Assembly (NCBI RefSeq): GCF_050920415.1
Contig: NZ_CP169309.1
Source of the DNA: Escherichia coli
GTDB lineage: Bacteria; Pseudomonadota; Gammaproteobacteria; Enterobacterales; Enterobacteriaceae
DNA: 64,000 bases
Strand: one strand, 5' to 3'
Shown here: positions 35,530 to 51,707 of the stretch, piece by piece
Layout of the letters: each line of letters opens with the position of its first letter
Position numbering within the stretch: position 1 is the stretch's first letter
The notes under the pieces: generated by a model
What the model saw: the letters and a program-made list of their open reading frames with translations, nothing else
Databases searched by the model: none
Told to the model about the DNA's origin: nothing
Position numbers and translations under genes: made by a program

Positions 35530-36012
35530 TCACGCAAAACAGAGTTCCTGTTCAGGAATACTTTCAACATCACAGTTGTCACTGCCGCCGCGATCGATGG
35601 TCAGAAAATCGGTGACGCGCTGCCAGGCGAAAAGTGGGTGATGCCAGACGTTACGATGGTAATTCACTCCCTGTTCACCGTTGGTAATAAACGCCCGCAG
35701 GGTTGACAGGTCTGGTTTGTCGTCACCTAACGCCACGACCACCACAAACACTTCCCCTTTCATCGGAATAAAGGCCTGAGTGCCCAGCGGATGACGTTCG
35801 AGTTCGTGAATGGTCAGCGGCAGATTCGCCGGTTGCGCGCGGTTAATGCTGATAAGCGTACGGTCTTGCTCAAGAATCTCAACCAGCGCCAAATCGTGGT
35901 AACGCTCCACCAGGCCATTGTTAATATGGAAAAAATCCCGTTGCTGCGTTTCGATTACGTCGCCATAAGCACTAAAGGCTTCCTGACTTAACGGTAATAC
36001 CTGAAGTTTCAT
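35530..36012 (-). CDS. allA: Ureidoglycolate lyase
   Basis: 160 aa. Confidence 0.9.
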
Positions 36013-36240
36013 CTTTTTGTCCTTGTAACATAATTCCGTTCAACCACCGCCGACCGGTCAATGTGGTTCAATAACAGGCAATCTAAAACCTTAAGAGAAC
36101 AACATCAATACAAATGTTGGAATATTTTTCCAAAACTAGATTTAGTCCACAAATCACACAGGGTTATCATGTAAAAATACTGATAAATCAGAGGATAAGA
36201 AAATCACGCAACTTGCGGATTTAAAAGGGGATACCTGAAG
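36013..36240. promoter_or_regulatory. Divergent allA / allS control region (AllR operator expected here from established knowledge)
   Basis: 228 bp AT-rich intergenic region between divergent allA and allS; operator position inferred, not seen as a motif. Confidence 0.4.
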
Positions 36241-37167
36241 ATGTTCGATCCAGAAACCTTGCGGACTTTCATTGCGGTTGCTGAAACAGGAAGTTTTTCA
36301 AAAGCGGCAGAACGATTATGTAAAACCACGGCGACGATCAGTTATCGCATTAAACTTCTGGAAGAGAATACCGGAGTGGCGCTGTTTTTCCGCACGACTC
36401 GCAGCGTGACGTTGACAGCGGCTGGCGAGCATCTACTTTCTCAGGCCAGAGACTGGCTGAGCTGGCTGGAAAGTATGCCCAGCGAGCTGCAACAGGTGAA
36501 TGATGGCGTGGAACGCCAGGTGAATATTGTCATCAACAACCTGCTCTACAACCCCCAGGCCGTCGCCCAGCTGCTGGCGTGGCTGAATGAACGTTACCCC
36601 TTTACCCAGTTTCACATCTCCCGACAAATCTATATGGGCGTCTGGGACTCGCTATTGTACGAAGGTTTTTCACTGGCTATCGGCGTCACGGGAACCGAGG
36701 CGCTGGCAAATACCTTTAGTCTTGATCCCTTAGGATCGGTGCAATGGCGCTTTGTCATGGCGGCGGATCATCCGCTGGCGAAAGTTGAAGAGCCGCTAAC
36801 AGAAGCGCAGTTGCGGCGCTTTCCGGCGGTTAATATTGAAGACAGCGCCCGCACCTTAACCAAGCGCGTCGCCTGGCGTTTGCCGGGGCAAAAAGAGATT
36901 ATTGTTCCCGATATGGAAACGAAAATCGCCGCCCATCTGGCGGGCGTTGGCATTGGTTTTTTGCCAAAATCACTTTGCCAGTCAATGATCGATAATCAAC
37001 AATTGATCTGCCGGGTAATCCCAACGATGCGCCCTCCTTCGCCATTGAGTCTGGCATGGCGCAAATTTGGCAGCGGCAAAGCGGTAGAAGATATTGTGGC
37101 CTTGTTTACCCAGCGCAGGCCGGAAATCAGCGGATTTTTAGAAATTTTCGGCAACCCACGCAGTTAA
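36241..37167 (+). CDS. allS: LysR-family activator of allD
   Basis: 308 aa with N-terminal LysR HTH. Confidence 0.9.
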
Positions 37168-37220
37168 AAATCAAGTTTCCTTGCGCGTTGGCGCGTAAAA
37201 TAGCGTGCAAGCTGATTTGA

Positions 37221-38330
<1,110 letters not shown>

Positions 38331-38364
38331 TGAGGGACACGGTGCCTGTTTCATAAAGATCATT

Positions 38365-38782
38365 TATACCCGTCATACTTCAAGTTGCATATGCGTTGGC
38401 AAGTTATTCAGGGATAGCCGGATGAGTGACATCACCATCCGGCTTAAGATTCCATACTATAATAATTCGAGTTGCAGGACAAAACGCCAGTGGCGTTTTG
38501 AACAACGCTTGCGTTGACCCTGAAAGGGTGAGGCCTAAGGCCGAGTAACGCGACAGGCGAGTGACAAATTCGTCGGGAACGAATTTGACCAGCCTCTGGC
38601 TGGCCTTCGGTGAAAGGCATCCTGCCTTTCAGTCATCCCCAGTCACTTACTGGGGTGAGCGACAAATCCGCATGGAGCGGATTTGAACGCTGCTTGCAGC
38701 GGTCCCGTAAGGGGTGAGGCCCATGGATGGGCCGAATAACTCGCAGACGCAGCACATGCAACTTGAAGTATGATGGGTATAT
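38365..38782. repeat. ERIC/IRU-like composite intergenic element bounded by 30-bp inverted repeats
   Basis: Left arm tatacccgtcatacttcaagttgcatatgc, right arm gcacatgcaacttgaagtatgatgggtata; interior contains the ERIC core-like agtcacttactggggtgagcg and internally repeated ggtgaggcc...ggccga segments. Confidence 0.5.
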
Positions 38783-38939
38783 ACACAATGAACTTCAAGA
38801 CACTTGCTTCGGTATCTGGAAATTATCATTAATTCTGGATGCGACCAGCCTTGCTATATCTGGCAATGTTTCTTCAAAAACGTCGATATTGTATCCCAGA
38901 AATCTCACACACTGCTGAACCGGCATGTTCATTAATTAT

Positions 38940-39342
38940 TTATCCAGGCCATTTGCAATCAGTACCATCACTATTATATGCCTCAATATTTTCTTCAAAC
39001 TCAGTTATTTTTCCACTTTTCGATTTATAGTAAGAGCTATTAAATCTTGCACCCTGCGTAGCAACAACATACAATCCGTTGACTTTACATCCTATAACCT
39101 CACTCCATGTATATGTAAACTCTGAAGGTCTATCATCGAAAGTCACTTCCAATTTTTTCGTAAATGCAAGAGGTATGAAATTTGAGGATATTCCATAAAC
39201 CACATAACCTAAAACAACATCACCAGAAGATACTTCAACAAATTTTAAATTTATCTTCCCGAAACTAAAACAGCCAACCGTAGTTTGTTATTTAGCAAAT
39301 AAGAAAAAGGGCATCAAACAAAAAATTAAAACAAATAATTTA
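38940..39342 (-). pseudogene. Frameshifted remnant of a small exported protein
   Basis: ATG at 39342 opens a signal-peptide-like frame (MKVKLFVLIFCLMPFSYLL...) that stops after about 32 codons; a different frame continues as the 87 aa ORF 38940-39203. Confidence 0.3.
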
Positions 39343-40268
39343 ACTTTCATATCATTTACTCCAATTCAGTTATTCGCCTCTGTACAAAAGCACACACAGA
39401 TTTTGAATTAATGGCGTACAAAAACATAATCGGATGAAAATACCACACCGGAATATTACTGATATAGCGGGATCTTACTCATTCGCTAGACTGAAAATGC
39501 AATTGAACAGAAATTTCTTACTAGTGTTTTTATCAGATGATCGGAAAGGAAATCAACTCACTGGCAAGTATCATAAGCTCAAATTGGCATATTGTATATT
39601 CCCATAAATACTTTTATTTTTTGATTAACATACTCAATACTACACATCACTAATTGAGAGAAGATTAACTTCATCATCTTTGATTAGGTACGTTTTTTAA
39701 TTTTCAATGACGCATCATAAAAAAGGGCTTACCAAGTTTAACACTAATAACAGGATATAAAGAAAACATATTGCTATATGAATCCTTTGGCGATGTTTTG
39801 GTTATGGTAATCTTTCCTTCTTTCAAGTGCTCTGCTATTATATGAAATTGAATCGGTCTTGTTGCATCACTTACCCGCAATGGATTACCAGCGTAAGCTT
39901 CATATCCTCCACCATTATTCATATGTAAAATAGTGTATTCGTCATTTAAAAATGACTGCTTACTATCGTAGACTTGGTAGTATATATTACTTATATCAAG
40001 ATAAATTACTATAGAGATATACTTAATTTTTCATTTAGCATTAATGATGTATCCATGGAATCTATACATCTTTCAATATCAGTTATTTTTTCTTCTATAT
40101 ACGTAGCATAATTTTTTGGCACTGGCGTGTTTAGCCCTCATATACCCTCATTAACTAAGACACCATTTTGCTTGCTTTTTACATTGTAATAAAGACAATC
40201 AATATTGAATTTATTATTTTTATATTTCAGTGTTGTATATACAGTAAAATCATGCAGCGAACGCCCAT

Positions 40269-40544
40269 CTAAAACAATTGCGGGCGTGTCAGAAAAAAGT
40301 CAAATGAATAAGATGGATTATTTTCATAATCAGTCATAAATTTCATCTTTCTTATTTCATGATCAACGATCGCATAGATCTCATGATTAGATTCATCATA
40401 TCCATAAATGATTTCACCACCAGTACTGGCAGTAGCAGTAGCACTACTACAAATCAACATAATTACAAGTACATATCTAGTCAAGTTGAAAATCCTTAGG
40501 GGCAGATGATGTTTTTTCCAAGATGGATTGAAATTTTTCAACAT
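40269..40544 (-). CDS. Small hypothetical protein, possible orphan exported protein
   Basis: 91 aa ORF in an AT-rich decayed region; internal hydrophobic stretch. Confidence 0.25.
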   Translation of the reverse strand: MLKNFNPSWKKHHLPLRIFNLTRYVLVIMLICSSATATASTGGEIIYGYDESNHEIYAIVDHEIRKMKFMTDYENNPSYSFDFFLTRPQLF

Positions 40545-40854
40545 AAGAATCCATTAATTGCTTCTGATATTTTTCATTAATTATTTTTCGCGTATTATTA
40601 TATTAAATTTTATCACTGTTAATATATGTGGGGATTTTTACTCGTAAAAATCCCCGCCTCAATTCCCCAAATCATAATTGATACAGGACACAACTCTAGC
40701 AATGGTATCGTGAATAGTTTTCTTTAATAAGGCACGTCTCAATTCTTGAACATAAATTCGAATTATTTAGTAAAAAAACATCATCCCTGGGAGTATTACC
40801 TATTTTTGTATAATGCTATATTTATAGTAAACAATTCACAAGAAAATATTATTA

Positions 40855-41826
40855 CTAATATTTATATTCCTCCCACTGAGCACCGTATCGATGCTTTAAC
40901 AGTTTAACTTTAATTTCATCATATGTTTTAACTTTACTACCATCAATCTTAAGGCGAATTTTATTCGAGGTGATATCAACATAATTTCTATTTTCCCCAC
41001 CCGCAGGGAAAAAATCAAACATAAAATTAGACATGTTTTGTTCTTTTTTCATGAGAGCTCCATACTCACACATGTCATTTATATTTTGTATGTATGGAGT
41101 GCCCCCCTGACATGATGGATAATGAAAATCAATTATAGTAAAAAGCGATTTATTGACACTCCTCTGAAAGAACCACTTATTATTTACAATACGATAGGTT
41201 AAAGATTTAAATGTATACCAGTGACTTCCTGGAAGAAAAGAGTAAGCTTCATTAAGATTGACAGTAAATACCTTAGTTTCTCCAGAGGAAAGCTTTACCC
41301 ATTCTGATTTTATATCACAATTATCGCCCATACCAAAATAAAGCTCATCATTGGCATCATCCTCAACAAAATCACATATATTGGTTGCGGAAGGACGGAA
41401 TTTCAGATAGAAACCACTTGTGGATATTAAAAAAGAATCCTCACATAAAGGAGAAAAAAAATAAGGCTCCGATGTGTGTGAGGAGATAGGTAATAATCGT
41501 CTATGAATGAAATTTTCGCTACCCCCCAAATTTGTAAAACTTATTTTTGCTAACACACGAGAGTCAATTTGCTTAACGGTTAATCTAACATCAACATCAA
41601 ACATATTACGATTTGGCAATTTTTCCTCGACTCCGTCAGTGTAATGTGATAACTCAAGTATATTGTCCTCAAGAGTCATCGAATTTAATTTTTGTTCGGA
41701 AACATATTGTGCAATAACCTCATCATTGCAGTATCCATGAAATGAAATAAACATTAGCACTGCAATCTTAACTAATCTCAAAATACTTTTCAATATTGTA
41801 TGCATTATTAAAAACCAGCGGGTCAT
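40855..41826 (-). CDS. Putative immunity protein 2 (exported), paralogue of the 43491-44312 gene
   Basis: 323 aa; N-terminal hydrophobic signal-like segment; conserved segments shared with 43491-44312 (FTN...S, FxPG..Y, F.KS..Y+.VN+KWF); directly downstream of the HExxH gene. Confidence 0.6.
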   Translation of the reverse strand: MTRWFLIMHTILKSILRLVKIAVLMFISFHGYCNDEVIAQYVSEQKLNSMTLEDNILELSHYTDGVEEKLPNRNMFDVDVRLTVKQIDSRVLAKISFTNLGGSENFIHRRLLPISSHTSEPYFFSPLCEDSFLISTSGFYLKFRPSATNICDFVEDDANDELYFGMGDNCDIKSEWVKLSSGETKVFTVNLNEAYSFLPGSHWYTFKSLTYRIVNNKWFFQRSVNKSLFTIIDFHYPSCQGGTPYIQNINDMCEYGALMKKEQNMSNFMFDFFPAGGENRNYVDITSNKIRLKIDGSKVKTYDEIKVKLLKHRYGAQWEEYKY

Positions 41827-42582
41827 GTTTTGATTTTAATTCTTTTGCATTGGCAATTTCTCTTTTTTTTCCCAAATCGTTACTGCTTAATCCACCATAA
41901 TACTGTTCTCCATCCCAGATAATAAAAAGGTGAGATAACTCATGGCATAATGTGGAGACTCGAGAGTTTTCTCCCGTTGGATTTTTACATGTGAAATTTT
42001 GTAAGATATCTATAGATATTCTTTCTCGATACTCTAACTTTAAAAGTTCAGCCTTCGACTTATTTTTATACTCACTACTTTGGTATTGGGGCCGATTTAG
42101 ATCTATATGAGTCGTCTGAGCAGCCGGTATACGGGCTGAACCATTGACTAAATTGGTATAATTTTTAAAATTGCCATATATTAGTTGTACATTATCTTGC
42201 GTTCGAGTTTCAATGATCAAGCTATCACAAATCATGATCATTCTGTAAACCCCCTCTTTTATAAAAGTATGTGCGTCAATATTCTTGGTTTGTGGAGTGA
42301 AGTTCCCATTATTATCTGACTTTTGACAAGGAGCATAGTGTTCCATTGTTATAATAGCATCACCTGGTAATCCAAATATATCTTCAAAATTTTTCTGATC
42401 TGCTGGTGTCCATGCTTCCAGATTTTTGCTCTGATATTCAATACTCGCTTTGTTTCTTCCAAAGCAGGCGTTATCATGTTGTAAAATTGATCAGTAACCT
42501 TTGCTTCTTTTTTACATATATTGCCTTTTTGAGTTACCCCTTGTGAACTTCCTTTGTTATTATTCATAAACACCTCCCTCAA
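41768..42582 (-). pseudogene. HExxH-motif putative type VI effector, copy 2, disrupted by a -1 frameshift in an A5 run
   Basis: Two ORFs (42349-42582 and 41768-42346) in different frames both align to the intact paralogue at 44336-45127; HELSH at 41930-41944; frames switch at the T5/A5 run 42423-42427. Confidence 0.7.
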
Positions 42583-42975
42583 TCATATCTATACTTTGAT
42601 GCAATAGCCTGACTTTTATCGTCAGCTCACTGTCAGTGATAAATATTTCCGTATACCCATCCTTATCCGTTTCCCCTCGCGCTTGTGTGCCGTCCTCAAA
42701 AAAGGCAATGTAGCGTGTTTCTGAATACGGTATCCCGTCATCGTCTGTAAAATGAAACTGGAGGGTGTATTTCTCAGGTTCATCCTTATCTTCATTGTCG
42801 TTCCCAGAATCATTTCCATCGCCACCACCGACCCCGCCATTGCCTTGCCCGCCCTCTGCACCACCATCTTTATCACTACCTTCATCCGTCAGTGCCTCCA
42901 GCACGCCCGGTTGCAGTGTCGGTACCGGAGTCCCCGGACTACCCCCACCATTCAGATTTATCTTCGGCCCCCAGG
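42560..42975 (-). pseudogene. Orphan 3' fragment of a vgrG gene (last 140 codons or so)
   Basis: Translation GPKINLNGGGSPGTPVPTLQP...DEPEKYTLQFHFTDDDGIPYSETRYIAFFEDGTQ matches the C-terminal region of the full vgrG at 45117-47522; DNA 42897-42970 matches 45463-45536; no upstream vgrG body. Confidence 0.75.
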
Positions 42976-43335
42976 GAAAGATTACGAAAGCCCGCTCCCC
43001 GCAAGGACTGACGCCAGATACTTTCTGTCCATGGCTGCTTTTCGCATCTTACGTCTTAACCCTGCCTTGAATACCTTATCATTCGTCAAAATATTAATAG
43101 CGATGTGCCGTATCCCTGAAAATAATTCTGCTGCATTTCCTCTTCTTATTTTGCAGTCGTCTTCATTCATTACCACGTCCAGACGCCAGTGCAGCTTATT
43201 CTCCACGTGCCCGTGGTTTCGGATTGCTGTGGCGAACTTCTCTGCGGTTAAATCAGCAGAACTGATATAATATCTGACCGTCATTTCTGGCTCTTTCTTT
43301 TGTTCTGCTATTATGGACCGAAAGGAGACTGCCAC
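42972..43335 (-). mobile_element. H-repeat (ISAs1-family) transposase 3' remnant
   Basis: 117 aa ORF ending ...[28 protein letters not shown], recognised as the C-terminus of H-rpt/ISAs1-type transposases; no N-terminal part present. Confidence 0.65.
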
Positions 43336-43490
43336 GCATAATTTCTTCAGCCCTTTCCATTCAAACGTGAAATCAATAAGTTCATCAGGGACATCGCAAA
43401 CAATATGAAGACGGATTTCTTCTCTGCCGTGACTAAAATGCGAATTATTTAGTACAAAAAAAGCGGCGCACCTTGTTCTTTCCCAGATTC

Positions 43491-44312
43491 CTAATATGGC
43501 AACTTTAAGTTATCGCCGTCTATACTTATAGAAATTTCATCAGGGGTGACGTAAATAGAATTTTTTTCATCCTCAATTGCCCATAACTGATTAATAAAAA
43601 AGTGTTTTTTTTCATCTAATAACAAATTATCACATGTAGTAAAATTATTAATATCAAAAAGATCATCAGCACAATTAATTTTTAAATTTAAAAAATAAAG
43701 AAAAATATTATTGATTGATTTGAGTGTAAACCACTTGTCATTAACAAATTTATAGCCAGATGATTTTATAAAATAATAATTATCTCCTGGTATAAAGGCA
43801 TACATATCATTTAAGGTTATACTCAACAAAAAACTACGACCTGGTTTAATAGTATTCCACCGTTCAGGATTCGTATTAATTTCAAAAGGACATGAACCAC
43901 CTAAGTAGTCCAACGTGATATTCCCAGAGTTGATTCTGAATGGTTTTTTGCATATTGCATCATATTCATCTCCTTTTCCATCTTTTACTTTCATAGGTAG
44001 ATAATATTTAGAAAAAAAATACGTGGTAGAGCTTTTGTTAGTAAAGGTTATGTTAGCAAAAATCCTGTTATTTTTTTTACTCATAGCTAATTGAGCATTG
44101 ACATCCGCTATATAATTTATATGATTACATTTTTTCTTACACTCATCATAATTTTCGATAGGATAAATTAATGGCCTTCCTTTGATATCTCTCTCAAGCC
44201 CAAACCCGTATTTTTTTATTAAAACCATTTCATCTGCAGTCGATTGAAAGGAATAGAAAAATATAATATTTACGATTGTCATTATTATGATTTTTTTTAT
44301 AGCTTGCAGCAT
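43491..44312 (-). CDS. Putative immunity protein 1 (exported)
   Basis: 273 aa, hydrophobic N-terminus ([16 protein letters not shown]); immediately downstream of the HExxH gene; paralogue of 40855-41826. Confidence 0.6.
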
Positions 44313-44335
44313 TAATATATTTCTCGACTTATTAG

Positions 44336-45127
44336 TTAATGGAGAAGTGCTTTTTCTAATTCCGCTATTTTTTTCTTAACTAAATTGCTTAATATTTCAT
44401 CATTAATCGAGTCTATCTCACTTTCAATTAATCTTATTTCAAAATATCTTTCTATGTTATATGCATTCTCAAATATTTGATCTTTTTGTTTAGAGATCAG
44501 TTTAGTTGCAATACGGATATGTTCGTCATATGAAACTTCATCCTCTTTGCACGTTGAATATTTATCAGTAGTTGTATAATCCTGTGACCACATACCACCT
44601 TTTTTATTATCCCTATAATACCACTGAATATGAGACATTTCATGACATAAAGTAGCAACATGAGAATCCTTTCCCGTTACTGGATTTTTTTTGCCATCTC
44701 TATACTCAAATTTTGCGCCTATGTTAATTATATAGGGCATATCCTTACTTGGGCTGACGAATGCTGCAAATTCATTACAACCTGTATAATTTATAAAACT
44801 GCTCATTGTTAAATCATTAGCTATAATCATTAATCTTCTCACACCATCCATCATAAGAAATCTAGCATTCATGCGCCTGCCTGTATTATGTCCATATTTT
44901 CTTATATTAACTTCCTTATTTCCTTTAACACCAAAGATCTTACTGAAATCATATTCCTCCTGTGCTCCCCATCTCAAAAGATCATCTGCTCTTTTTATCA
45001 AAACCAACTTTTGTGCCTTACGAGCCTTATCAATCATTATTTTAAAATGATCAGTTATTTTTTGCTCTTTCACACATTCTTCTGGCTCTGGCTTTGGTTG
45101 TCCAGAAGTTTGATTATTATCGTCCAT
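44336..45127 (-). CDS. HExxH-motif putative zinc-metallopeptidase-like type VI effector, copy 1 (intact)
   Basis: Start ATG 45127 with AAGGA RBS, overlapping the vgrG stop; HEMSH at 44630-44644 (catgaaatgtctcat on the sense strand); no signal peptide; low GC. Confidence 0.7.
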   Translation of the reverse strand: MDDNNQTSGQPKPEPEECVKEQKITDHFKIMIDKARKAQKLVLIKRADDLLRWGAQEEYDFSKIFGVKGNKEVNIRKYGHNTGRRMNARFLMMDGVRRLMIIANDLTMSSFINYTGCNEFAAFVSPSKDMPYIINIGAKFEYRDGKKNPVTGKDSHVATLCHEMSHIQWYYRDNKKGGMWSQDYTTTDKYSTCKEDEVSYDEHIRIATKLISKQKDQIFENAYNIERYFEIRLIESEIDSINDEILSNLVKKKIAELEKALLH

Positions 45128-47522
45128 AGTGTCCTTCCATTGAGAGAAAATCATCATTCGCAAATAGCAACTTCACTTTAATTTCATGTTTGCTAGATAC
45201 AAAAAAACGCTCTGTATACCCCTCTTCATCCGTTTCTCCGCGGGTCTGCGTGCCATCCTCAAAGAAGGCAATGTAGCGGGTTTCTGAATACGGTATCCCG
45301 TCATCGTCTGTAAAATGGAACTGGAGAGTATATTTTTCAGGTTCATCCTCATCGTCACCTCGATCATCACCACCACTTCCGGTCACGCAGTTCCCTCCAG
45401 AGTTTTCATTTTCTTCTCCGGAATCACTGCCATCACCACTCTTCTCATCCCCCAGTGTCTTCAGCACCGCCGGTTGCAGCGTCGGTACAGGCGTCCCCGG
45501 ACTGCCTCCCCCGTTCAGATTTATCTTCGGCCCCACTATATCCACGCCCCCTGAATGGATGACCACAAACGAGCCACCCAACTTCAGGCTTATCCGGCTG
45601 CTGCTCTCCAGCACGATATCCCCGTCCACCTTTATCCCCAGCGCACCACTCACCTTCCTCGCCAGGTCGCCTTTCACCTCCAGGCTGTGTTTTCCCTCCA
45701 CCAGGCTGATGTGGTTTCCTGTCGTTTTGTGCTCCTGCTTCCCTTCCACCGTCACCTTTCGGTCGTTTCTGACGTACAGACCGTCATCGTGGCTGACGTT
45801 CACCCGCCGGTCGTTCGTCACCTTCAGCGTCTGGTCGTTGCGCACCGTGATGCTCCGGTCATGGGCCACCGTGATACTCTGGTCGTGGCCCCCTTCTTTT
45901 CTGGTGCCGACCTCAACCGTCTGCCCCTTCACCACCCTTATCTTCTGGTCGTTACCGATGGTCTCCGTATGGTCATGCTTCACGTCCGTCGTCCGGTCGT
46001 TAAGCACCTCCGTGTCCATGTTCTTCTGCGCGTGGATATACACCTGCTCACTGTCCGTCGCATCCTCGAAACGCAGTTCATTAAAGCCGCTTCCTTTATA
46101 GGTCTTCGAGCGGATGGTCATCTGCGTCCGCGTGCCCGGTAAATCCCCCGGTGAACGGTTATCTTCATGGTAGGTCCGCCCCGTCACAATGGGCTGGTCC
46201 GGGTCTCCGTTCAGAAAGTCCACTATCACTTCCTGACCCACACGCGGTATCGCCAGATTGCCGAACCCCGGTCCCGCCCATGCCTGCGACACCCGTATCC
46301 AGCATGAACTCTCCTCCGTCATCCCGTGATAACGGTCCCAGTGAAACTTCACCCGTACCCGGCCATGCTCGTCGCAGAATATCTCCTCGCCCTTCGGCCC
46401 GGTCACGATGGCACTCTGCGGGCCGTCCACCTTCGGCTTCGGCAGCGGCGCGTGACGCCACGTCCTGTCTGCCGGTATCACCTCAAACTGGTTACTCAGC
46501 GTCGTCCCTTCACCGTGACTGCCGTGCAGCGCCTGCGGCTGTTCTCCCCGCAGTGTGCTTCCCACAACCTGCCATTCCCGGTTCAGCGTATCCGACGGGT
46601 GACCCGACAGGGTAAACCGCGTTCCCGGCCACAGCCGCGCCGTGTTACACACCCCGCTCGCCGTCTCCGCCCCGTTCCGCCACCCTTCCGTCTGGTAACG
46701 CGCAAAATCCTGGCCATGCTGCTCATCCTTGAAACGCCCCGGATAATCAAATATCTCGTACTGCGTTCCCTGCCCGTTCAGGCTCTCCCCGTCATGGCTG
46801 TAGTACCCCGGCCACCCCGGCACTTTAAACGTATAATCCTGCGTCTCCACCGACGCCACGCTTATCTGCGCACGGTAACGAAACTCACTGATGTACTCCG
46901 TCGTTCCCCCGGTCGTCGTGTTCGGGTTAAACGCCAGCGCCCCCATTCCCGTCAGCCCCGCCACGTCATCACACACCGCCAGCTTCTGTTCCGGCCCGTC
47001 CTGACTGCAGCGTTCATAAAAGAAGATACCTTCCTCCGCCCACAGCCGGGTCAGGAACGCCAGGTCGCTCTCCCCGTACTGCACGCAGAACTCCCGCGCC
47101 GGATGGTCTTCATAAAACAGCGGCATCCACGCCGTCACCCCGTTCTCTCTCAGAAGCTGTGCTGATATCGTCCCGATGTCCTGCTGCTGGAAGATACGGA
47201 AGTTCTGCCGTAACCCTGCCCGCCACAGCGGCGGGCTGATGCTCAGGGAATAACGCATCTGCCAGTCGTTGTTCTCACCGAGCTGCACCTCCGTCACGAT
47301 ACCGCTGACGTAACGCTGTGCAGTGTCGCCCTGCCAGACCGTCAGCACCGCGCTTTTCTCCAGAAAATCCTCCGCCGTCAGGTCGGACAGCCCGCTGGCG
47401 ATATCCACATCCAGGATGAACGGTGTGCAGTGGTGCTGGTACAGACGGAAGCTCACCACCGCCGTCGCCATCTCCACGATGTCGTCCACCGACAGCGTGA
47501 AACGTAATCCTTCTGAGGACAT
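45117..47522 (-). CDS. vgrG: Type VI secretion spike protein VgrG with acidic Gly/Asp-rich linker and C-terminal extension domain
   Basis: 801 aa from MSSEGLRFTLSVDD; gp27-like N-terminal region, gp5-like repeats (VKHDHTETIGNDQKIRV...), then GGGSPGTPVPT, acidic linker and a C-terminal domain of about 60 aa. Confidence 0.9.
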   Translation of the reverse strand: MSSEGLRFTLSVDDIVEMATAVVSFRLYQHHCTPFILDVDIASGLSDLTAEDFLEKSAVLTVWQGDTAQRYVSGIVTEVQLGENNDWQMRYSLSISPPLWRAGLRQNFRIFQQQDIGTISAQLLRENGVTAWMPLFYEDHPAREFCVQYGESDLAFLTRLWAEEGIFFYERCSQDGPEQKLAVCDDVAGLTGMGALAFNPNTTTGGTTEYISEFRYRAQISVASVETQDYTFKVPGWPGYYSHDGESLNGQGTQYEIFDYPGRFKDEQHGQDFARYQTEGWRNGAETASGVCNTARLWPGTRFTLSGHPSDTLNREWQVVGSTLRGEQPQALHGSHGEGTTLSNQFEVIPADRTWRHAPLPKPKVDGPQSAIVTGPKGEEIFCDEHGRVRVKFHWDRYHGMTEESSCWIRVSQAWAGPGFGNLAIPRVGQEVIVDFLNGDPDQPIVTGRTYHEDNRSPGDLPGTRTQMTIRSKTYKGSGFNELRFEDATDSEQVYIHAQKNMDTEVLNDRTTDVKHDHTETIGNDQKIRVVKGQTVEVGTRKEGGHDQSITVAHDRSITVRNDQTLKVTNDRRVNVSHDDGLYVRNDRKVTVEGKQEHKTTGNHISLVEGKHSLEVKGDLARKVSGALGIKVDGDIVLESSSRISLKLGGSFVVIHSGGVDIVGPKINLNGGGSPGTPVPTLQPAVLKTLGDEKSGDGSDSGEENENSGGNCVTGSGGDDRGDDEDEPEKYTLQFHFTDDDGIPYSETRYIAFFEDGTQTRGETDEEGYTERFFVSSKHEIKVKLLFANDDFLSMEGHYGR

Positions 47523-47813
47523 ATAAACCCCATAGCTACCGCACTCATGGTGCAAACCCTACAGAATTATAAGAAAGACTTAAGTGAGATATCCGTCAGA
47601 TAGCAACTATTAGGAAAATATTTATATACATTTCATGAATACATTCATTAATACCGAGATGTTTTTGTCTATATAAACAGAGCAAGCTAACGTCCTCACT
47701 CCATGAAAGAAACTACGTAGGGGCCTTTCGGTCCATAACAACTTTTTCCCTGTTATATCCTGACGTTCTGGTCTACTGGTGTAGTCATGCATATTGCAAC
47801 GTTCTACCCATGG

Positions 47814-47900
47814 AAAGATAAATAAAGCCAGCTCTCCGCAAGGACTGAAGCGAGGTGCTTTCTGTCCATAGCTGCTTTTCGCAACTTACTCCTTAACCCA
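47814..47900 (-). mobile_element. Short H-repeat (ISAs1-family) 3' remnant, direct repeat of 42972-43060
   Basis: ctctccgcaaggactgaagcgaggtgctttctgtccatagctgcttttcgcaacttactccttaaccc aligns with the 3' end of the 42972-43335 remnant; encodes ...[19 protein letters not shown]. Confidence 0.55.
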
Positions 47901-48055
47901 ACACTGAATTTCTTATGATTTGTCACAGTATGAACTTTTAATTTCATACATTGCTCTTTAGTCAATAGAAGAAAAATAAGCACCCTCTCCCAAACGACAC
48001 AAATAACCTGCAAATGGGAAATGACTTATTACTTAGAAATTTGCAGAGATATAAA

Positions 48056-48337
48056 TCACGAGATATATCCACCTTTTGAGTTAACAGTTACAGACGTTAT
48101 AACATTATCTTTTATCCAGATATCAACAAAAAAGTCCTTACCACAATAAAGACATTCACAATATCCTTCAGAGATAAAGTTGTCCTTAAGTTTATTTCTG
48201 GTTATATTAATAAGTTTATCGCCAGGATTGTAATGTACTAAATTTCCAGATGGCACAAACATCTCAATTTCACACTGTCCTGACGTTCCACATCGAGGGC
48301 AAACGCACCATGCTTTCAATAAATCATAATTCGACAT
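48056..48337 (-). CDS. Small Cys-rich hypothetical protein (possible zinc ribbon)
   Basis: 93 aa with CPRCG and CECLYCG; AAGGT RBS upstream of the ATG at 48337; AT-rich. Confidence 0.5.
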   Translation of the reverse strand: MSNYDLLKAWCVCPRCGTSGQCEIEMFVPSGNLVHYNPGDKLINITRNKLKDNFISEGYCECLYCGKDFFVDIWIKDNVITSVTVNSKGGYIS

Positions 48338-48387
48338 TATATTACCTTAATTTATTTCACATCAGCATCCCCCCTTGCAAACCACAA

Positions 48388-48744
48388 CTAAACTATTCCC
48401 ATAAAATACAACGAGATAATTTTACTGTTAAACGTACATTCACAAAACTCAGGGGAAGAAAAATGACCATCAGTCAAAAATAAAGATAGTTTGCTTAGTG
48501 CGTAATCAATTGAATCAAGCGACAAGTATAATTTTATTACTAGTGAGTTCTGTATCAGGACATCATTTTCATTGGGGGATTGTAAAAGTAATAAATTTTT
48601 ATACGCTACAGGTGATCTGTTTTCCAGTCTAATAGGTTTGCTTGCTTCCGTCTCCAATAAACTATAAAGAGCACAAACCATCTCATGAGCATCATCTTTC
48701 TCAAAATGTAAATGAAACCCGCCCAGAGATTTATTAGCAATCAT
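48388..48744 (-). CDS. Hypothetical protein
   Basis: 118 aa ORF, weak RBS, AT-rich accessory context. Confidence 0.4.
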   Translation of the reverse strand: MIANKSLGGFHLHFEKDDAHEMVCALYSLLETEASKPIRLENRSPVAYKNLLLLQSPNENDVLIQNSLVIKLYLSLDSIDYALSKLSLFLTDGHFSSPEFCECTFNSKIISLYFMGIV

Positions 48745-48841
48745 AATACGTTTCTAAAGTTGATTTGAAATTTTGCATTTCATGCTCATCAAAAAAATAA
48801 ATATATTTTAACTACAAAGCAAACATCACAGCGCATAGCGG

Positions 48842-49057
48842 TTAATATTCTACCTTAACGACTTTCATTCCTCTTTCAATCATACCATTAATTAATTGAT
48901 AATACTCTTTATCCCCTACATCTACTATTAGAATATGTCCGGTAAGTTCATTGATGAATAAATACTCAGGTTCCTCATCTGTACCAGCATTTGAAATAAC
49001 CCAACCTGGATCAGTACCATCTATAAAAAACTCCCACTCTTTAAAATTAACACTCAT
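48842..49057 (-). CDS. Small acidic hypothetical protein (candidate orphan immunity protein)
   Basis: 71 aa; strong AAGGAGG RBS 6 nt upstream of the ATG. Confidence 0.5.
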   Translation of the reverse strand: MSVNFKEWEFFIDGTDPGWVISNAGTDEEPEYLFINELTGHILIVDVGDKEYYQLINGMIERGMKVVKVEY

Positions 49058-49169
49058 TTAATCCTCCTTTTTATACTCGCAAGAAAAGGAGAGTATCGTT
49101 TCTAACTCTGAAATAAAAGTATGATAAAAGACAGGACCTGGCCTCATTGAATGTTATTTCTCAATTCTT

Positions 49170-49275
49170 GATAGTTTTTGCCGGATGCGGCTTGAACGCT
49201 TATCTGGCCTACACAATCTTGCAAAATCAATATATTGCACGCTCTTCGTAGACCAGATAAGCGTAGCGCATCAGG
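49170..49275. repeat. REP-type palindromic repeat
   Basis: gccggatgcggc...gcttatctggcctac and its partner gtagaccagataagcgtagcgcatcaggc in inverted orientation. Confidence 0.5.
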
Positions 49276-49292
49276 CAATCTAACACCTGTCA

Positions 49293-51707
49293 TCACCCCG
49301 CAAACTGCCTGAACAGCGCCTTACCCTTAACCAGTCGCGCACCCAACCAGCCGCCGAAAAGCGACAGCAGCAGTGCACCGCTACAAGGCAGAACAATCCA
49401 CAATCGCCAGTCTGGCTCCCACGGGAAATCAAACACTTTTGATTGCAGTACCGCCAGTGCCGTTTCCGCACCAATTGCGGCCACCAGGCCGGAGACAAAC
49501 CCGAGCATGGCGAACTCACACCACAATGTCGTGCGCAGCAGTTTTTTGCCCGCACCGAGAGTGCGCCACACCACCAGCTCCTGATGACGCTGACGCATTC
49601 CCACCTGCACCTGTGCCAGCAACAGCAACATACCGCAGGCGGTGACCAGCACCACCATCACTTCCAGCGCCCGACTTACCTGCTCCAGCACCTGACCGAC
49701 CTGTTTTAAAATCGCGCCAATGTCTAACAGGCTAATGGTCGGGAACTGGCGGTTGAGTTGCGTCAACATGCCGTTGCCATTCTCCCAGCGGAAACTGGTA
49801 AGCCAGCTCTGCGGTTGCCCGTCTAATGCCCCTTCCGGGAAAATAAAATAGAAATTAGGCCGCAGACTTTCCCAGTCCACTTTGCGCAGGCTGGTCACTT
49901 TAGCGCGGAACTCCTGGGTATCGCCCATAAAGGTGACGGTATCGCCGAGGGTAACATTTAAGCGTTTCGCCAGCCCCTCTTCCATCGATACTTCATCGGC
50001 TTTTGGCGGCCAGTTACCAGCGACAATCGGATTATGATCGGGCCGCGTATTTTGCCAGGTGAGATTGAGTTCGCGGTTGAGCGCCTCATCTTCATTGCCT
50101 TCTGTCGGCTTGCCGTTAATCGCCGTCAGCCGCGCCCGCACCACCGGATAAAACGATTCCGGGACTATCTGATGTTCCGCGAGGAACGCTTTTAGCGGAG
50201 TAACCTGTTCTGTGGCGATGTTGATTAAAAAGTAGTTAGGACTTTCTGGCGGTAGCTGCTGTTGCCAGCGATCGAGCAGATCGCCACGCAACACCAGCAA
50301 CAGTGCCAGCAGCATAAAGGAGAGCGAAAATGCCGAAAGCTGGCTTAACGTTGACCACGGCTGACGTAACAGGCGGCTAACCGCCAGGCGCAGAGGCAGC
50401 GATTTCAGCGTCATGCGGCGAAGTACATTCAGCAGCATCCAGCCCAGGACACCGCACAGCAAAGCTAGTACTATCGCGCCCGCCAGCACCGCCCAGAGCA
50501 GCATACTGCCGCCCATCAGTCCGGCGAGCAGCAGCACAACCACCACACTGACAATCGGCAGATAAAACTTGAGCGGCCAGACGTTCGCTACCACATCATT
50601 ACGTAATACGCGTAAAGGCTGCGTTGCCAGCAACAAGCGGTACGGTCGTAGCCCCACCAGCAGCGAGATGACCGTCATGGTGCCAAGCGCCCACAGCCAT
50701 GGCCAGAGGCTGGCAGGCGGTAGTGCGGCAGGCAGAACGGGCTTGAGCAGTACCATCAACACGTTTTCGAACAACAGGCCTATCGCCCCGCCGGTAACGG
50801 CTGAAAGCGCCAGCACCATCAGCCACTGACCGACGATTAGCTTACGCAGTTGCGCTCGCCCAGCCCCCAGCGTTTTGAGGATCGCCACCAGATCGTAGCG
50901 ACTACGACAGTAATGATTCATCGCCACCGCCACCGCTGCCACTGCCAGCAGCAAGGTCAGAAGCGCCGAAAGCAGCAGAAACTGTTGCGAGCGTTCCATC
51001 GATCGCCCCAGCGCGCCTTCGTCCTGTTCCAGACCGTACCAGCGTTGTTCGGGTTTAAGCTGGGGTAACAACCATTTCTCATAGCCGTCGAGCTGGTTCT
51101 CGCTGCCGCCGAATTTATAGCGCCAGGTGACCCGACTCCCCGGCTGCACGGCTCCGGTTTTATCGACATCCGCCAGATTCATCATCAGACGCGGAGCCAT
51201 CTGGAAGGGGTTAAAACCGGAATCCGGTTCCTGAATCACTTCTCCGGCAATCCGCAAGGTGGCATCGCCCACGTCAATGGTGTCGCCTGTTTTCAGGTTA
51301 AGCAGTGCCATCAGGCGTGGGGCCAGCAATACGCTGCCCGCCTGCGGTTTCAGGCCAGGGGGATTGGTTTGCAGATCGCCATACATCGGGTAGATATCAT
51401 CCACCGCTTTAACATTCGCCAGCTGCGGCGTATCGCCCGCAAAAGTCATCGTGGCGAAAGTCAGCTGCTTGCCGACTTTCAGGCCGCGCTTTTGCGCTTC
51501 CTCCAGCCACGCTTGCGGCACTTCGCGTGAACTGCGCAACGCCCGATCGCCCGCCATAAACTCACGGCTTTGCTGGCTTAAGCCCTTCTCCATGCGATCG
51601 CTGATATTGCCCAGCGCCAGCACGCAGGCCACCGCCAGGCTTAGCGCCAGCCAGACAATTAATAGCGACGGCGAGCGCCATTCGCGCCAGAACCAACGTG
51701 CAATCAT
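49293..51707 (-). CDS. ybbP: ABC transporter permease (FtsX-like, duplicated)
   Basis: ORF 49293-51755; start at MIARWFWREW gives 804 aa and a 4-nt overlap with the ybbA stop. Confidence 0.9.
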   Translation of the reverse strand: MIARWFWREWRSPSLLIVWLALSLAVACVLALGNISDRMEKGLSQQSREFMAGDRALRSSREVPQAWLEEAQKRGLKVGKQLTFATMTFAGDTPQLANVKAVDDIYPMYGDLQTNPPGLKPQAGSVLLAPRLMALLNLKTGDTIDVGDATLRIAGEVIQEPDSGFNPFQMAPRLMMNLADVDKTGAVQPGSRVTWRYKFGGSENQLDGYEKWLLPQLKPEQRWYGLEQDEGALGRSMERSQQFLLLSALLTLLLAVAAVAVAMNHYCRSRYDLVAILKTLGAGRAQLRKLIVGQWLMVLALSAVTGGAIGLLFENVLMVLLKPVLPAALPPASLWPWLWALGTMTVISLLVGLRPYRLLLATQPLRVLRNDVVANVWPLKFYLPIVSVVVVLLLAGLMGGSMLLWAVLAGAIVLALLCGVLGWMLLNVLRRMTLKSLPLRLAVSRLLRQPWSTLSQLSAFSLSFMLLALLLVLRGDLLDRWQQQLPPESPNYFLINIATEQVTPLKAFLAEHQIVPESFYPVVRARLTAINGKPTEGNEDEALNRELNLTWQNTRPDHNPIVAGNWPPKADEVSMEEGLAKRLNVTLGDTVTFMGDTQEFRAKVTSLRKVDWESLRPNFYFIFPEGALDGQPQSWLTSFRWENGNGMLTQLNRQFPTISLLDIGAILKQVGQVLEQVSRALEVMVVLVTACGMLLLLAQVQVGMRQRHQELVVWRTLGAGKKLLRTTLWCEFAMLGFVSGLVAAIGAETALAVLQSKVFDFPWEPDWRLWIVLPCSGALLLSLFGGWLGARLVKGKALFRQFAG

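What the first reader, a model, noticed from the sequence alone, without database searches (positions are those of the whole stretch)
38365..38782. ERIC-like composite palindromic element at the island boundary
A 418 bp segment next to selU is bounded by 30-bp inverted repeats (tatacccgtcatacttcaagttgcatatgc and its near-perfect reverse complement) and contains a sequence like the ERIC core (agtcacttactggggtgagcg) plus internally repeated ggtgaggcc...ggccga segments. It is larger than a canonical ERIC of about 127 bp, so it may be an ERIC with internal insertions or a related miniature inverted-repeat element marking the junction between core and accessory DNA.
Basis: partly seen in the sequence, partly recalled or inferred. 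Interest (0 to 1): 0.3.

Follow-up and report, generated by a model that had tools for sequence, protein, structure and literature searches.

The report
Long ERIC repeat plus stray fragment
This is an ordinary copy of the well-known enterobacterial ERIC repeat, in its long form with three hairpin inserts, lying next to an upside-down fragment of a second ERIC just after the E. coli mnmH (selU) gene, so it is a known kind of selfish repeat and not a new system.

Summary
Arms 38365-38394 and 38752-38781 are 28/30 complementary, and the 418 nt fold far better than shuffles on both strands (z -14 and -15.5).

Only 38454-38782 is an ERIC/IRU element. With three inserts removed, its backbone is 93% identical to the canonical 127-bp ERIC between cusF and cusC in K-12.

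The three inserts are about 70 nt each. They sit at the same three sites, in the same order, as in long ERICs of other E. coli, Intestinirhabdus, Leminorella and Citrobacter. The central loop has lost 13 nt, which removes both ERIC-PCR primer sites.

The left "terminal repeat" (38365-38413) is not this ERIC's own end. It is an inverted fragment of a second ERIC's right end, of the type seen in Salmonella, Citrobacter and Klebsiella. A unique 40-nt hairpin spacer follows it.

I found no second copy of the 418-bp unit. It is a one-off juxtaposition fixed in one E. coli lineage.

It lies inside accessory DNA. Homology to other E. coli ends at 38338, and a vgrG island of about 30% GC begins at 38783.

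The function is probably none, or a modest effect on the 3' end of the mnmH mRNA. The kind is known and interest is low.

The parts
37236..38330 (+). mnmH (selU, ybbB), tRNA 2-selenouridine synthase. This is the core gene whose 3' flank holds the element (context only).
   Evidence: ORF. Annotated as mnmH in identical genomes and as selU in K-12. Homology to other E. coli ends at about 38338.
38365..38413 (-). Left arm: an inverted fragment of a second ERIC. It holds that ERIC's right end plus the first ~12 nt of an insert tail (AAGTTATTCAGGG). It is of the GCGTTGGC type found in Salmonella, Citrobacter and Klebsiella.
   Evidence: complementary to 38734-38781; alignment with the Salmonella, Citrobacter and Klebsiella ERICs; 95% matches to ERIC ends on plasmids of other genera. 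E. coli matches stop after about 36-41 nt. A weak Rfam isrH hit covers 38369-38413.
38414..38453 (.). Unique spacer with a 9-bp stem hairpin (AGCCGGATG 38416-38424 pairs with CATCCGGCT 38436-38444). It belongs to neither the ERIC nor the insert consensus.
   Evidence: In E. coli it is present only in the genomes that share this locus. Exact 22-23-mers gave 0 hits in 100,044 species genomes and in metagenome contigs. The hairpin is seen in the fold.
38454..38782 (+). Complete long-form ERIC/IRU element, left end to right end, with three inserts. The left end is 38454-38479 (ATACTATAATAATTCGAGTTGCAGGA) and the right end is 38741-38782. TA dinucleotides flank it (38455-56 and 38781-82).
   Evidence: Alignment A1 with the K-12 cusF-cusC ERIC and with the long ERICs at ybhM (strain RM9088) and rpiA (strain E2348/69). 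Backbone 93% identical. Folds alone at -146.4 kcal/mol, z -7.5, with left and right ends paired.
38478..38553 (+). Insert module A (four small hairpins). Boundaries are uncertain by about 5 nt.
   Evidence: Covariance model R1 hit at 80.7 bits. Rfam RF02902 near-hit at 36.3 bits against a gathering score of 39.8. Fold.
38563..38635 (+). Insert module B (same hairpin plan, divergent sequence).
   Evidence: R1 hit at 51.5 bits. Same position and type in E. coli RM9088 and E2348/69, Citrobacter, Dickeya, S. arizonae and I. alba.
38636..38660 (+). ERIC central core, TCCCCAGTCACTTACTGGGGTGAGC, with the loop shortened by 13 nt and its left arm now an exact complement of the right arm.
   Evidence: Both ERIC-PCR primer sequences have no match in the window at up to 3 mismatches.
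38661..38739 (+). Insert module C (paralogue of A).
   Evidence: R1 hit at 78.3 bits. Rfam RF02902 at 25.5 bits. Direct repeat D1 with module A.

Best explanation
The segment is two pieces of the ERIC/IRU family of enterobacterial miniature inverted-repeat elements, lying head to head in the 3' flank of mnmH.

Piece 1 (38454-38782) is a complete long-form ERIC. It has the 127-bp backbone plus three paralogous ~70-nt four-hairpin inserts at the three usual internal sites, and a 13-nt palindrome-associated deletion in the central loop.

Piece 2 (38365-38413) is a truncated, inverted right end of a second ERIC of a different sublineage. A unique 40-nt hairpin spacer joins it to piece 1.

Because two ERIC right ends now face each other, the whole 418 bp reads as one element with 30-48-bp terminal inverted repeats. 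It is a one-off juxtaposition and not a mobile unit of its own.

The sequence encodes nothing. No intrinsic terminator-like site was found between the mnmH stop codon and the element. I therefore infer, without showing it, that mnmH transcripts run into it and fold into a very stable branched hairpin. By analogy with the Yersinia ERICs this could alter 3'-end stability or processing of the mnmH mRNA. It could also block transcription converging from the island. The most likely net role is neutral, selfish DNA inherited clonally with a vgrG island.
For: Identity:
- End-to-end alignment with the canonical K-12 ERIC and with long ERICs at two other E. coli loci. Backbone 104/112 identical.
- 7 matching places in the same genome, and matches in 5,425 of 5,426 E. 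coli genomes.
- The same three-insert architecture in Intestinirhabdus alba. 0-, 1-, 2- and 3-insert forms occur across genera.

Left arm:
- It aligns with ERIC right ends of Salmonella, Citrobacter and Klebsiella, including GCGTTGGC and the insert tail.
- The spacer is found nowhere else.
- Among the more than 100 ERICs in 1.1 Mb of fetched loci, only this one has an inverted right end upstream of its left end.

Structure:
- z -14.2 and -15.5 for the composite and -7.5 for the ERIC alone.
- Insert stems are 96.4% paired, with compensatory changes in 12 of 17 pairs, against 32-43% paired in slid controls.

Context:
- No terminator-like site between 38330 and 38782. No annotated feature under the match in the public genomes.
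- The element is 100% identical in five differently assembled genomes that carry the same MnmH allele.

Published background: ERICs are miniature inverted-repeat elements with TA flanks and are co-transcribed with neighbouring genes. In Yersinia they affect upstream mRNA level through an RNase E site (De Gregorio 2005, as summarised in PMC3184786, PMC2229807 and PMC10969869).
Against: - No empty site or presence/absence polymorphism was found for this locus. Insertion, and the TA duplication, are therefore inferred from the family and not shown here.
- How the left fragment arose is unresolved. It could be truncation of an older ERIC, a deletion between two head-to-head copies, or a rearrangement.
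- No expression data were available. Co-transcription with mnmH and any effect on mRNA are inference only.
- The orientation classes used in the Yersinia study could not be mapped because that paper is not in the library.
- The primary papers on ERIC insertions (Sharp 1997; Cromie et al. 1997; Wilson and Sharp 2006) could not be read. I saw them only in reference lists, and what I say of their content is from memory.
Confidence: 0.88

Rival explanations
1. The whole 418 bp is a single, larger miniature inverted-repeat element with its own 30-48-bp terminal inverted repeats, mobilised as one unit.
For: Near-perfect 30-nt arms. TA lies outside both arms. In the predicted fold the two arms pair with each other, and the ERIC's own left end is left unpaired.
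Against: No second copy at any other locus. Only 3 of 5,426 complete E. coli genomes have it, all at mnmH. The spacer gave 0 exact hits in 100,044 species genomes and in metagenome contigs. The two arms belong to different ERIC sublineages (GCGTTGGC against GCTGCGTCTGCG), so they are not a matched pair. A complete ERIC left end lies internally at 38454-38479.
Confidence: 0.04
2. It is a structured non-coding RNA gene, for example a relative of the Aggregatibacter sRNA 22 (RF02902) or isrH families.
For: Sub-threshold Rfam hits: RF02902 at 36.3 and 25.5 bits, isrH at 20.6 bits. Very strong folding. Compensatory changes in the insert hairpins.
Against: All Rfam scores are below gathering (39.8 and 45). 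No promoter-like site lies in or just upstream of the element. Both strands fold equally well, as expected of palindromic DNA and not of a one-strand RNA gene. The matched parts are repeat modules present in dozens of copies per genome in some species. The isrH match covers only 48 of 280 model positions.
Confidence: 0.04
3. It is the recombination or attachment site through which the vgrG island was integrated or exchanged.
For: It sits 27 nt inside the point where homology to other E. coli ends and directly at the GC drop. ERIC-like repeats have been reported in a plastic region of Xenorhabdus (PMC3184786).
Against: The window has no ERIC motif at the other island boundary near ybbP, or anywhere else. 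The 14 kb scanned holds no tRNA, and the seven island ORFs I scanned against Pfam contain no integrase. K-12 has an Rhs element at the same position without any ERIC, which fits exchange by homologous recombination in the flanking core genes.
Confidence: 0.04

Closest known systems
[quoted passage not shown] 1991), canonical 127-bp form, e.g. the K-12 cusF-cusC copy
   Same: Both termini, the flanking backbone and the core CCCCAG...CTGGGGTGAGCG are shared. Identity is 93% over 112 aligned positions. It is also an imperfect palindrome, intergenic, flanked by TA and multi-copy.
   Different: Three ~70-nt inserts. A 13-nt loss in the central loop removes both ERIC-PCR primer sites. The right end reads GATGGG where the K-12 copy has GACGAG.
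Long ERICs with internal insertions (Sharp 1997 'Insertions within ERIC sequences'; Cromie et al. 1997). I saw these only in the reference list of PMC3696847, and their content is from memory.
   Same: Inserts at the same three sites and in the same A-B-C order as the E. coli ybhM copy (88.6% identical over 71% of the query), the rpiA copy, and I. alba, Leminorella and Citrobacter copies. Every insert folds into small hairpins.
   Different: It carries an extra inverted right-end fragment and a unique spacer on its left. This was seen in none of the other long ERICs examined.
Rfam RF02902, AaHKsRNA22 (Aggregatibacter sRNA 22)
   Same: The ERIC inserts share its hairpin plan and conserved strings (ACAAAACGC...GCGTTTTGAAC, CCCnnnnGGG, TGAG). 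Free-standing copies in Mannheimia, Aggregatibacter and the record labelled Pseudomonas stutzeri NCTC11607 score 63-96 bits.
   Different: The window's copies score 36.3 and 25.5 bits, below the gathering score of 39.8. They are embedded in an ERIC and do not stand alone.
Correia/NEMIS elements of Neisseria and other bacterial miniature inverted-repeat elements
   Same: It works like them: a small non-coding repeat with terminal inverted repeats and TA flanks, co-transcribed with neighbouring genes and folding into RNA hairpins that RNases can target (PMC10969869).
   Different: No sequence relationship. No promoter or IHF site was identified here.

Membership tests
ERIC / IRU | Sequence similarity to the 127-bp consensus over both termini and the core | tested here: met
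   End-to-end alignment with the K-12 cusF-cusC ERIC. 104/112 aligned positions are identical once the inserts are removed.
ERIC / IRU | Central conserved inverted repeat (CCCCAG ... CTGGGG followed by TGAGCG) | tested here: met
   Present at 38637-38660, but the loop is 13 nt shorter. As a result the ERIC1R and ERIC2 primer sequences have more than 3 mismatches. From memory, shortened ERICs are described in the literature (Sharp and Leach 1996, listed).
ERIC / IRU | Imperfect palindrome able to fold into a long hairpin | tested here: met
   The ERIC alone folds at -146.4 kcal/mol, z -7.5, with its termini paired. The composite gives z -14.2 and -15.5.
ERIC / IRU | Multiple dispersed copies in the genome and across Enterobacteriaceae, in intergenic positions | tested here: met
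   7 places in the identical genome, and matches in 5,425 of 5,426 E. coli genomes at loci such as cusF-cusC, ybhM and rpiA, with no annotated feature under any listed match. Related copies occur in Citrobacter, Klebsiella and Salmonella.
ERIC / IRU | TA target duplication at the ends (stated for ERIC-type sequences in PMC3184786) | tested here: inconclusive
   TA is present at both ends of the complete ERIC and outside both arms of the composite. No empty site was found to prove duplication.
Long-form ERIC (with insertions) | Inserts of about 70 bp at specific internal sites | tested here: met
   Three inserts at the same sites as in E. coli RM9088 and E2348/69, and as in I. alba.
Rfam RF02902 AaHKsRNA22 (for the inserts) | Score at or above the family gathering score (39.8 bits) | tested here: not met
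   36.3 and 25.5 bits. The inserts are related in structure and sequence, but I do not file them as members.
Rfam RF01391 isrH | Score at or above gathering (45 bits) over the model | tested here: not met
   20.6 bits over 48 of 280 model positions. The match is only the shared ERIC right end.
Autonomous or composite mobile element (418-bp unit) | More than one copy of the full unit, at different loci | tested here: not met
   Only one locus in 5,426 E. coli genomes. The spacer is absent from 100,044 species genomes and from metagenome contigs.

The most novel reading that the evidence does not exclude
The ~70-nt four-hairpin inserts may not be incidental 'insertions within ERIC'. They may be an independent, structure-constrained small element shared by Enterobacterales and Pasteurellaceae. 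It would be free-standing in Mannheimia and Aggregatibacter, where Rfam lists it as an sRNA, and would have colonised three fixed sites of ERIC long ago. Its conserved fold would then reflect a function, such as a handle for an RNA-binding protein or RNase, or a single-strand DNA structure used for mobilisation. The 127-bp 'canonical' ERIC would be a reduced derivative of a ~330-bp ancestor.
Probability: 0.15. Interest if true: 0.4.

Novelty: already known. Interest (0 to 1): 0.12.

Why it matters
It matters little for biology. This is one more copy of a repeat family known since 1990-91, in a long form described in the 1990s.

Three practical points follow:
- Such copies are unannotated in public genomes, and their palindromic ends can be mistaken for novel transposon ends or RNA genes.
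- This copy has lost both ERIC-PCR primer sites, so it would probably not contribute to ERIC-PCR fingerprints.
- Its position, squeezed between mnmH and an AT-rich vgrG island, makes it a convenient lineage marker.

The side observation about the inserts may help curators, who could re-label the Rfam 'sRNA' family RF02902 as a repeat module. The evidence is that the ERIC inserts are paralogues of one four-hairpin module, that they show compensatory changes, and that relatives stand alone in Pasteurellaceae.

Tried and rejected
- Rfam scan of 36000-42000 at E<=1: only sub-threshold hits (RF02902, isrH), so it is not a curated RNA family member.
- I followed the only literature hit for the terminal motif, a Yersinia micF primer, and checked the K-12 micF-rcsD spacer. 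No ERIC is there. The motif is simply a Yersinia ERIC end.
- Search for the unique spacer: E. coli genomes, plasmids (only the first ~41 nt match, as ERIC ends), 100,044 species genomes and metagenome contigs. Nothing beyond this lineage.
- Search for an empty site: mnmH plus flank against E. coli, a right-flank 25-mer in metagenomes, and contigs with the identical MnmH allele. All carriers are identical and no empty site was found.
- tRNA or attachment-site idea: no tRNA in 36000-50000.
- Tandem repeats: none in the element.
- Promoter and terminator scan: nothing inside the element, and counts do not exceed shuffles.
- Small ORFs overlapping the element (40-60 aa): not pursued. They are not annotated in the public genomes and lie in repeat hairpins.
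- Primary ERIC papers (Wilson and Sharp 2006; De Gregorio 2005) are not in the library. The Yersinia orientation classes could therefore not be applied.

Full report
OBSERVATION
The 30-nt arms at 38365-38394 and 38752-38781 are 93% complementary and lie 357 nt apart. With gaps the complementarity runs to about 48 nt at 83%. The 13-mer ACTTCAAGTTGCA occurs only at these two places in the 64-kb window. The ggtgaggcc...ggccga repeats are real: 38518-38540 and 38704-38726 are 78% identical. The neighbouring ORF 37236-38330 is mnmH (selU). As single strands the 418 nt fold at -211.5 kcal/mol (z -14.2) and -205.1 kcal/mol (z -15.5), and no shuffle did as well.

WHAT IT IS
The window is Escherichia coli. 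The segment is 100% identical to NZ_CP169399.1 and NZ_CM169999.1. Parts of it match 14,437 places in 5,425 of 5,426 complete E. coli genomes, and most genomes match only about 41 nt at the right end.

The K-12 match lies between cusF and cusC. It is a textbook 127-bp ERIC/IRU element that contains both ERIC-PCR primer sequences.

A multiple alignment shows that window 38454-38782 is collinear with that element from its first to its last base. Three blocks of about 68-78 nt are inserted: after GTTGCAGGA, after GCGAGTGA and after GGTGAGCGA. The same blocks occupy the same sites in a long ERIC downstream of ybhM in strain RM9088 (all three) and upstream of rpiA in strain E2348/69 (the second and third).

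With the blocks removed, the backbone is 104/112 = 93% identical to the K-12 copy.

The central loop is 13 nt shorter. The window has CCCCAG-TCACTTA-CTGGGG, where the canonical element has CCCCAG-GAGCTTACATAAGTAAGTGA-CTGGGG. The left half is now the exact complement of the right half, a palindrome-associated rearrangement. As a result neither ERIC2 nor ERIC1R matches anywhere in the window at up to 3 mismatches.

THE LEFT ARM
The true left end of this ERIC is ATACTATAATAATTCGAGTTGCAGGA at 38454-38479. It carries GCGTTGGC followed by AAGTTATTCAGGG. That makes it the right end of an insert-bearing ERIC of the type seen downstream of gyrA in Salmonella, and in Citrobacter and Klebsiella. The E. 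coli type reads GCTGCGTCTGCG.

After 49 nt the similarity stops. A 40-nt spacer follows, with a 9-bp hairpin (38416-38444). Within E. coli this spacer occurs only in the three complete genomes that share the locus. It gave no exact hit in one genome per 100,044 species or in metagenome contigs.

I scanned 1.1 Mb of fetched loci holding more than 100 ERICs. Only this one has an inverted right end upstream of its left end. The 418 bp are therefore a complete long ERIC plus a stray fragment of a second ERIC, and not one element with matched termini.

In the predicted fold the stray arm out-competes the ERIC's own, less perfect, left end for pairing with the right end. Folded alone, the ERIC pairs its own two ends (-146.4 kcal/mol, z -7.5).

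THE INSERTS
The three blocks are paralogues of one four-hairpin module. There were dozens in Intestinirhabdus alba and eight in Leminorella. Others were in Salmonella arizonae and diarizonae, Dickeya, Citrobacter, Enterobacter, Escherichia whittamii, Serratia, Aggregatibacter and Mannheimia.

ERICs with 0, 1, 2 or 3 modules occur in these loci. I. alba alone has about 25 three-module copies with the same A-B-C order as the window, and about 24 one-module copies that lack the core.

A covariance model of the first three hairpins found 84 copies in 44 sources. In these copies 96.4% of cells form standard pairs, against 32-43% when partners are slid. Twelve of 17 pairs show changes on both sides, and no shuffle of 500 reached the covariation score. 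The alignment was fitted to the model and the copies are related, so this is supportive evidence and not proof.

In Pasteurellaceae the module stands alone, without ERIC ends. There it is Rfam RF02902, AaHKsRNA22, at 63-96 bits. The window's modules A and C score 36.3 and 25.5 bits, below the gathering score of 39.8.

CONTEXT
Homology between this strain and every other complete E. coli genome ends at window 38338, 8 nt after the mnmH stop codon. The element starts 27 nt later.

GC is about 0.55 in mnmH and about 0.30 from 38783 onward. The DNA between mnmH and ybbP holds the following:
- vgrG/tssI at 45117-47555, on the minus strand;
- two paralogous gene pairs with an HExxH protein;
- an ISAs1 fragment.

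K-12 has the RhsD element at this position and no ERIC.

The window lacks the IS2 that NZ_CP169399.1 carries here, so it comes from a sister strain. The exact MnmH allele is indexed in 135 blocks of the assembly collection. The five distinct places returned all carry a 100% identical composite.

The arrangement is therefore fixed and clonally inherited. No empty site was found.

HOW IT MOST LIKELY WORKS
Shown here:
- The element is non-coding repeat DNA of the ERIC family.
- It folds extremely well.
- No terminator-like or promoter-like site separates it from mnmH.

Inferred:
- mnmH transcripts read into it and form a branched hairpin.
- Published work on Yersinia ERICs reports co-transcription with flanking genes and an orientation-dependent effect on upstream mRNA through an RNase E site in one terminal repeat (De Gregorio 2005, as summarised in PMC3184786, PMC2229807 and PMC10969869). 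A similar modest effect on the mnmH mRNA 3' end is plausible here.
- It may also act as a barrier to transcription converging from the island.

Given the single lineage, the degenerate core and the accidental left arm, the default reading is neutral, selfish DNA.

COMPARISON AND NOVELTY
Every sequence and structure feature of ERIC that I could test is met. The TA duplication is consistent with the sequence but unproven. Long ERICs with inserts are in the literature (Sharp 1997 and Cromie et al. 1997, listed; their content is from memory). The only unusual feature is the stray inverted fragment, which has no sign of being more than an accident.

VERDICT
This is a known kind of element. Interest is low.

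Noticed in passing
window 38478-38553, 38563-38635, 38661-38739; L118 7042-7142; L017 1504-1608; L034 12315-12416: The three ERIC inserts are paralogues of a four-hairpin module. The module stands alone in Pasteurellaceae, where Rfam lists it as the sRNA family RF02902 (AaHKsRNA22). That 'sRNA' family therefore looks like a dispersed repeat module. Compensatory changes keep hairpins 1-3 (96.4% paired, 12 of 17 pairs covarying).
   Followed up: partly
L039-L116 (Intestinirhabdus alba BIT-B35), e.g. L052 1393-1716 and L045 760-880: I. alba is saturated with ERIC forms. The loci fetched hold about 25 three-module copies, about 24 one-module copies of ~130 bp that lack the ERIC core, and 0- and 2-module forms. 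This may be a recent burst, and it offers a good data set for deciding whether the 127-bp ERIC is a reduced form.
   Followed up: partly
window 38636-38660: This ERIC copy has lost both ERIC-PCR primer sites through a 13-nt central deletion with conversion of the left arm. Neither ERIC2 nor ERIC1R matches anywhere in the 64-kb window at up to 3 mismatches.
   Followed up: yes
window 38369-38413 (- strand): Positions 165-212 of the Rfam isrH model (a Salmonella Hfq-binding sRNA) correspond to an ERIC right end plus an insert tail. The isrH sRNA therefore seems to contain an ERIC fragment. The window hit (20.6 bits) reflects only that shared repeat.
   Followed up: no
window 38783-49290: An AT-rich (about 30% GC) accessory island lies between mnmH and ybbP. 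It holds vgrG/tssI (45117-47555, minus strand), a truncated second vgrG C-terminus (42560-42904) and an ISAs1 transposase fragment (42982-43335). It also holds two paralogous pairs: an HExxH protein (192 and 275 aa; the 275-aa one gives a weak Aspzincin_M35 hit) with a 323- or 273-aa partner of unknown family. K-12 has RhsD at this position.
   Followed up: partly
window ~39610 (equivalent of NZ_CP169399.1 3668465-3669693): The otherwise identical genome NZ_CP169399.1 carries an IS2 here (about 1,336 bp including its duplication) that the window lacks. The window therefore comes from a sister strain of the type seen in GCA_001650555.1.
   Followed up: yes
window 38783-40268: About 1.5 kb of AT-rich DNA directly right of the ERIC has only short ORFs (87 aa at 38940-39203 and 91 aa at 40269-40544, both on the minus strand, with no Pfam hit). 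It has no annotation in the public genomes. It may be decayed orphan immunity or effector genes.
   Followed up: no
PMC4543863 (primer micF-R): A published Yersinia pestis micF cloning primer ends inside an ERIC terminus (CAACTTGAAGTATGACGGGTATA). In Yersinia an ERIC therefore lies directly downstream of micF. E. coli K-12 has none at that position.
   Followed up: yes
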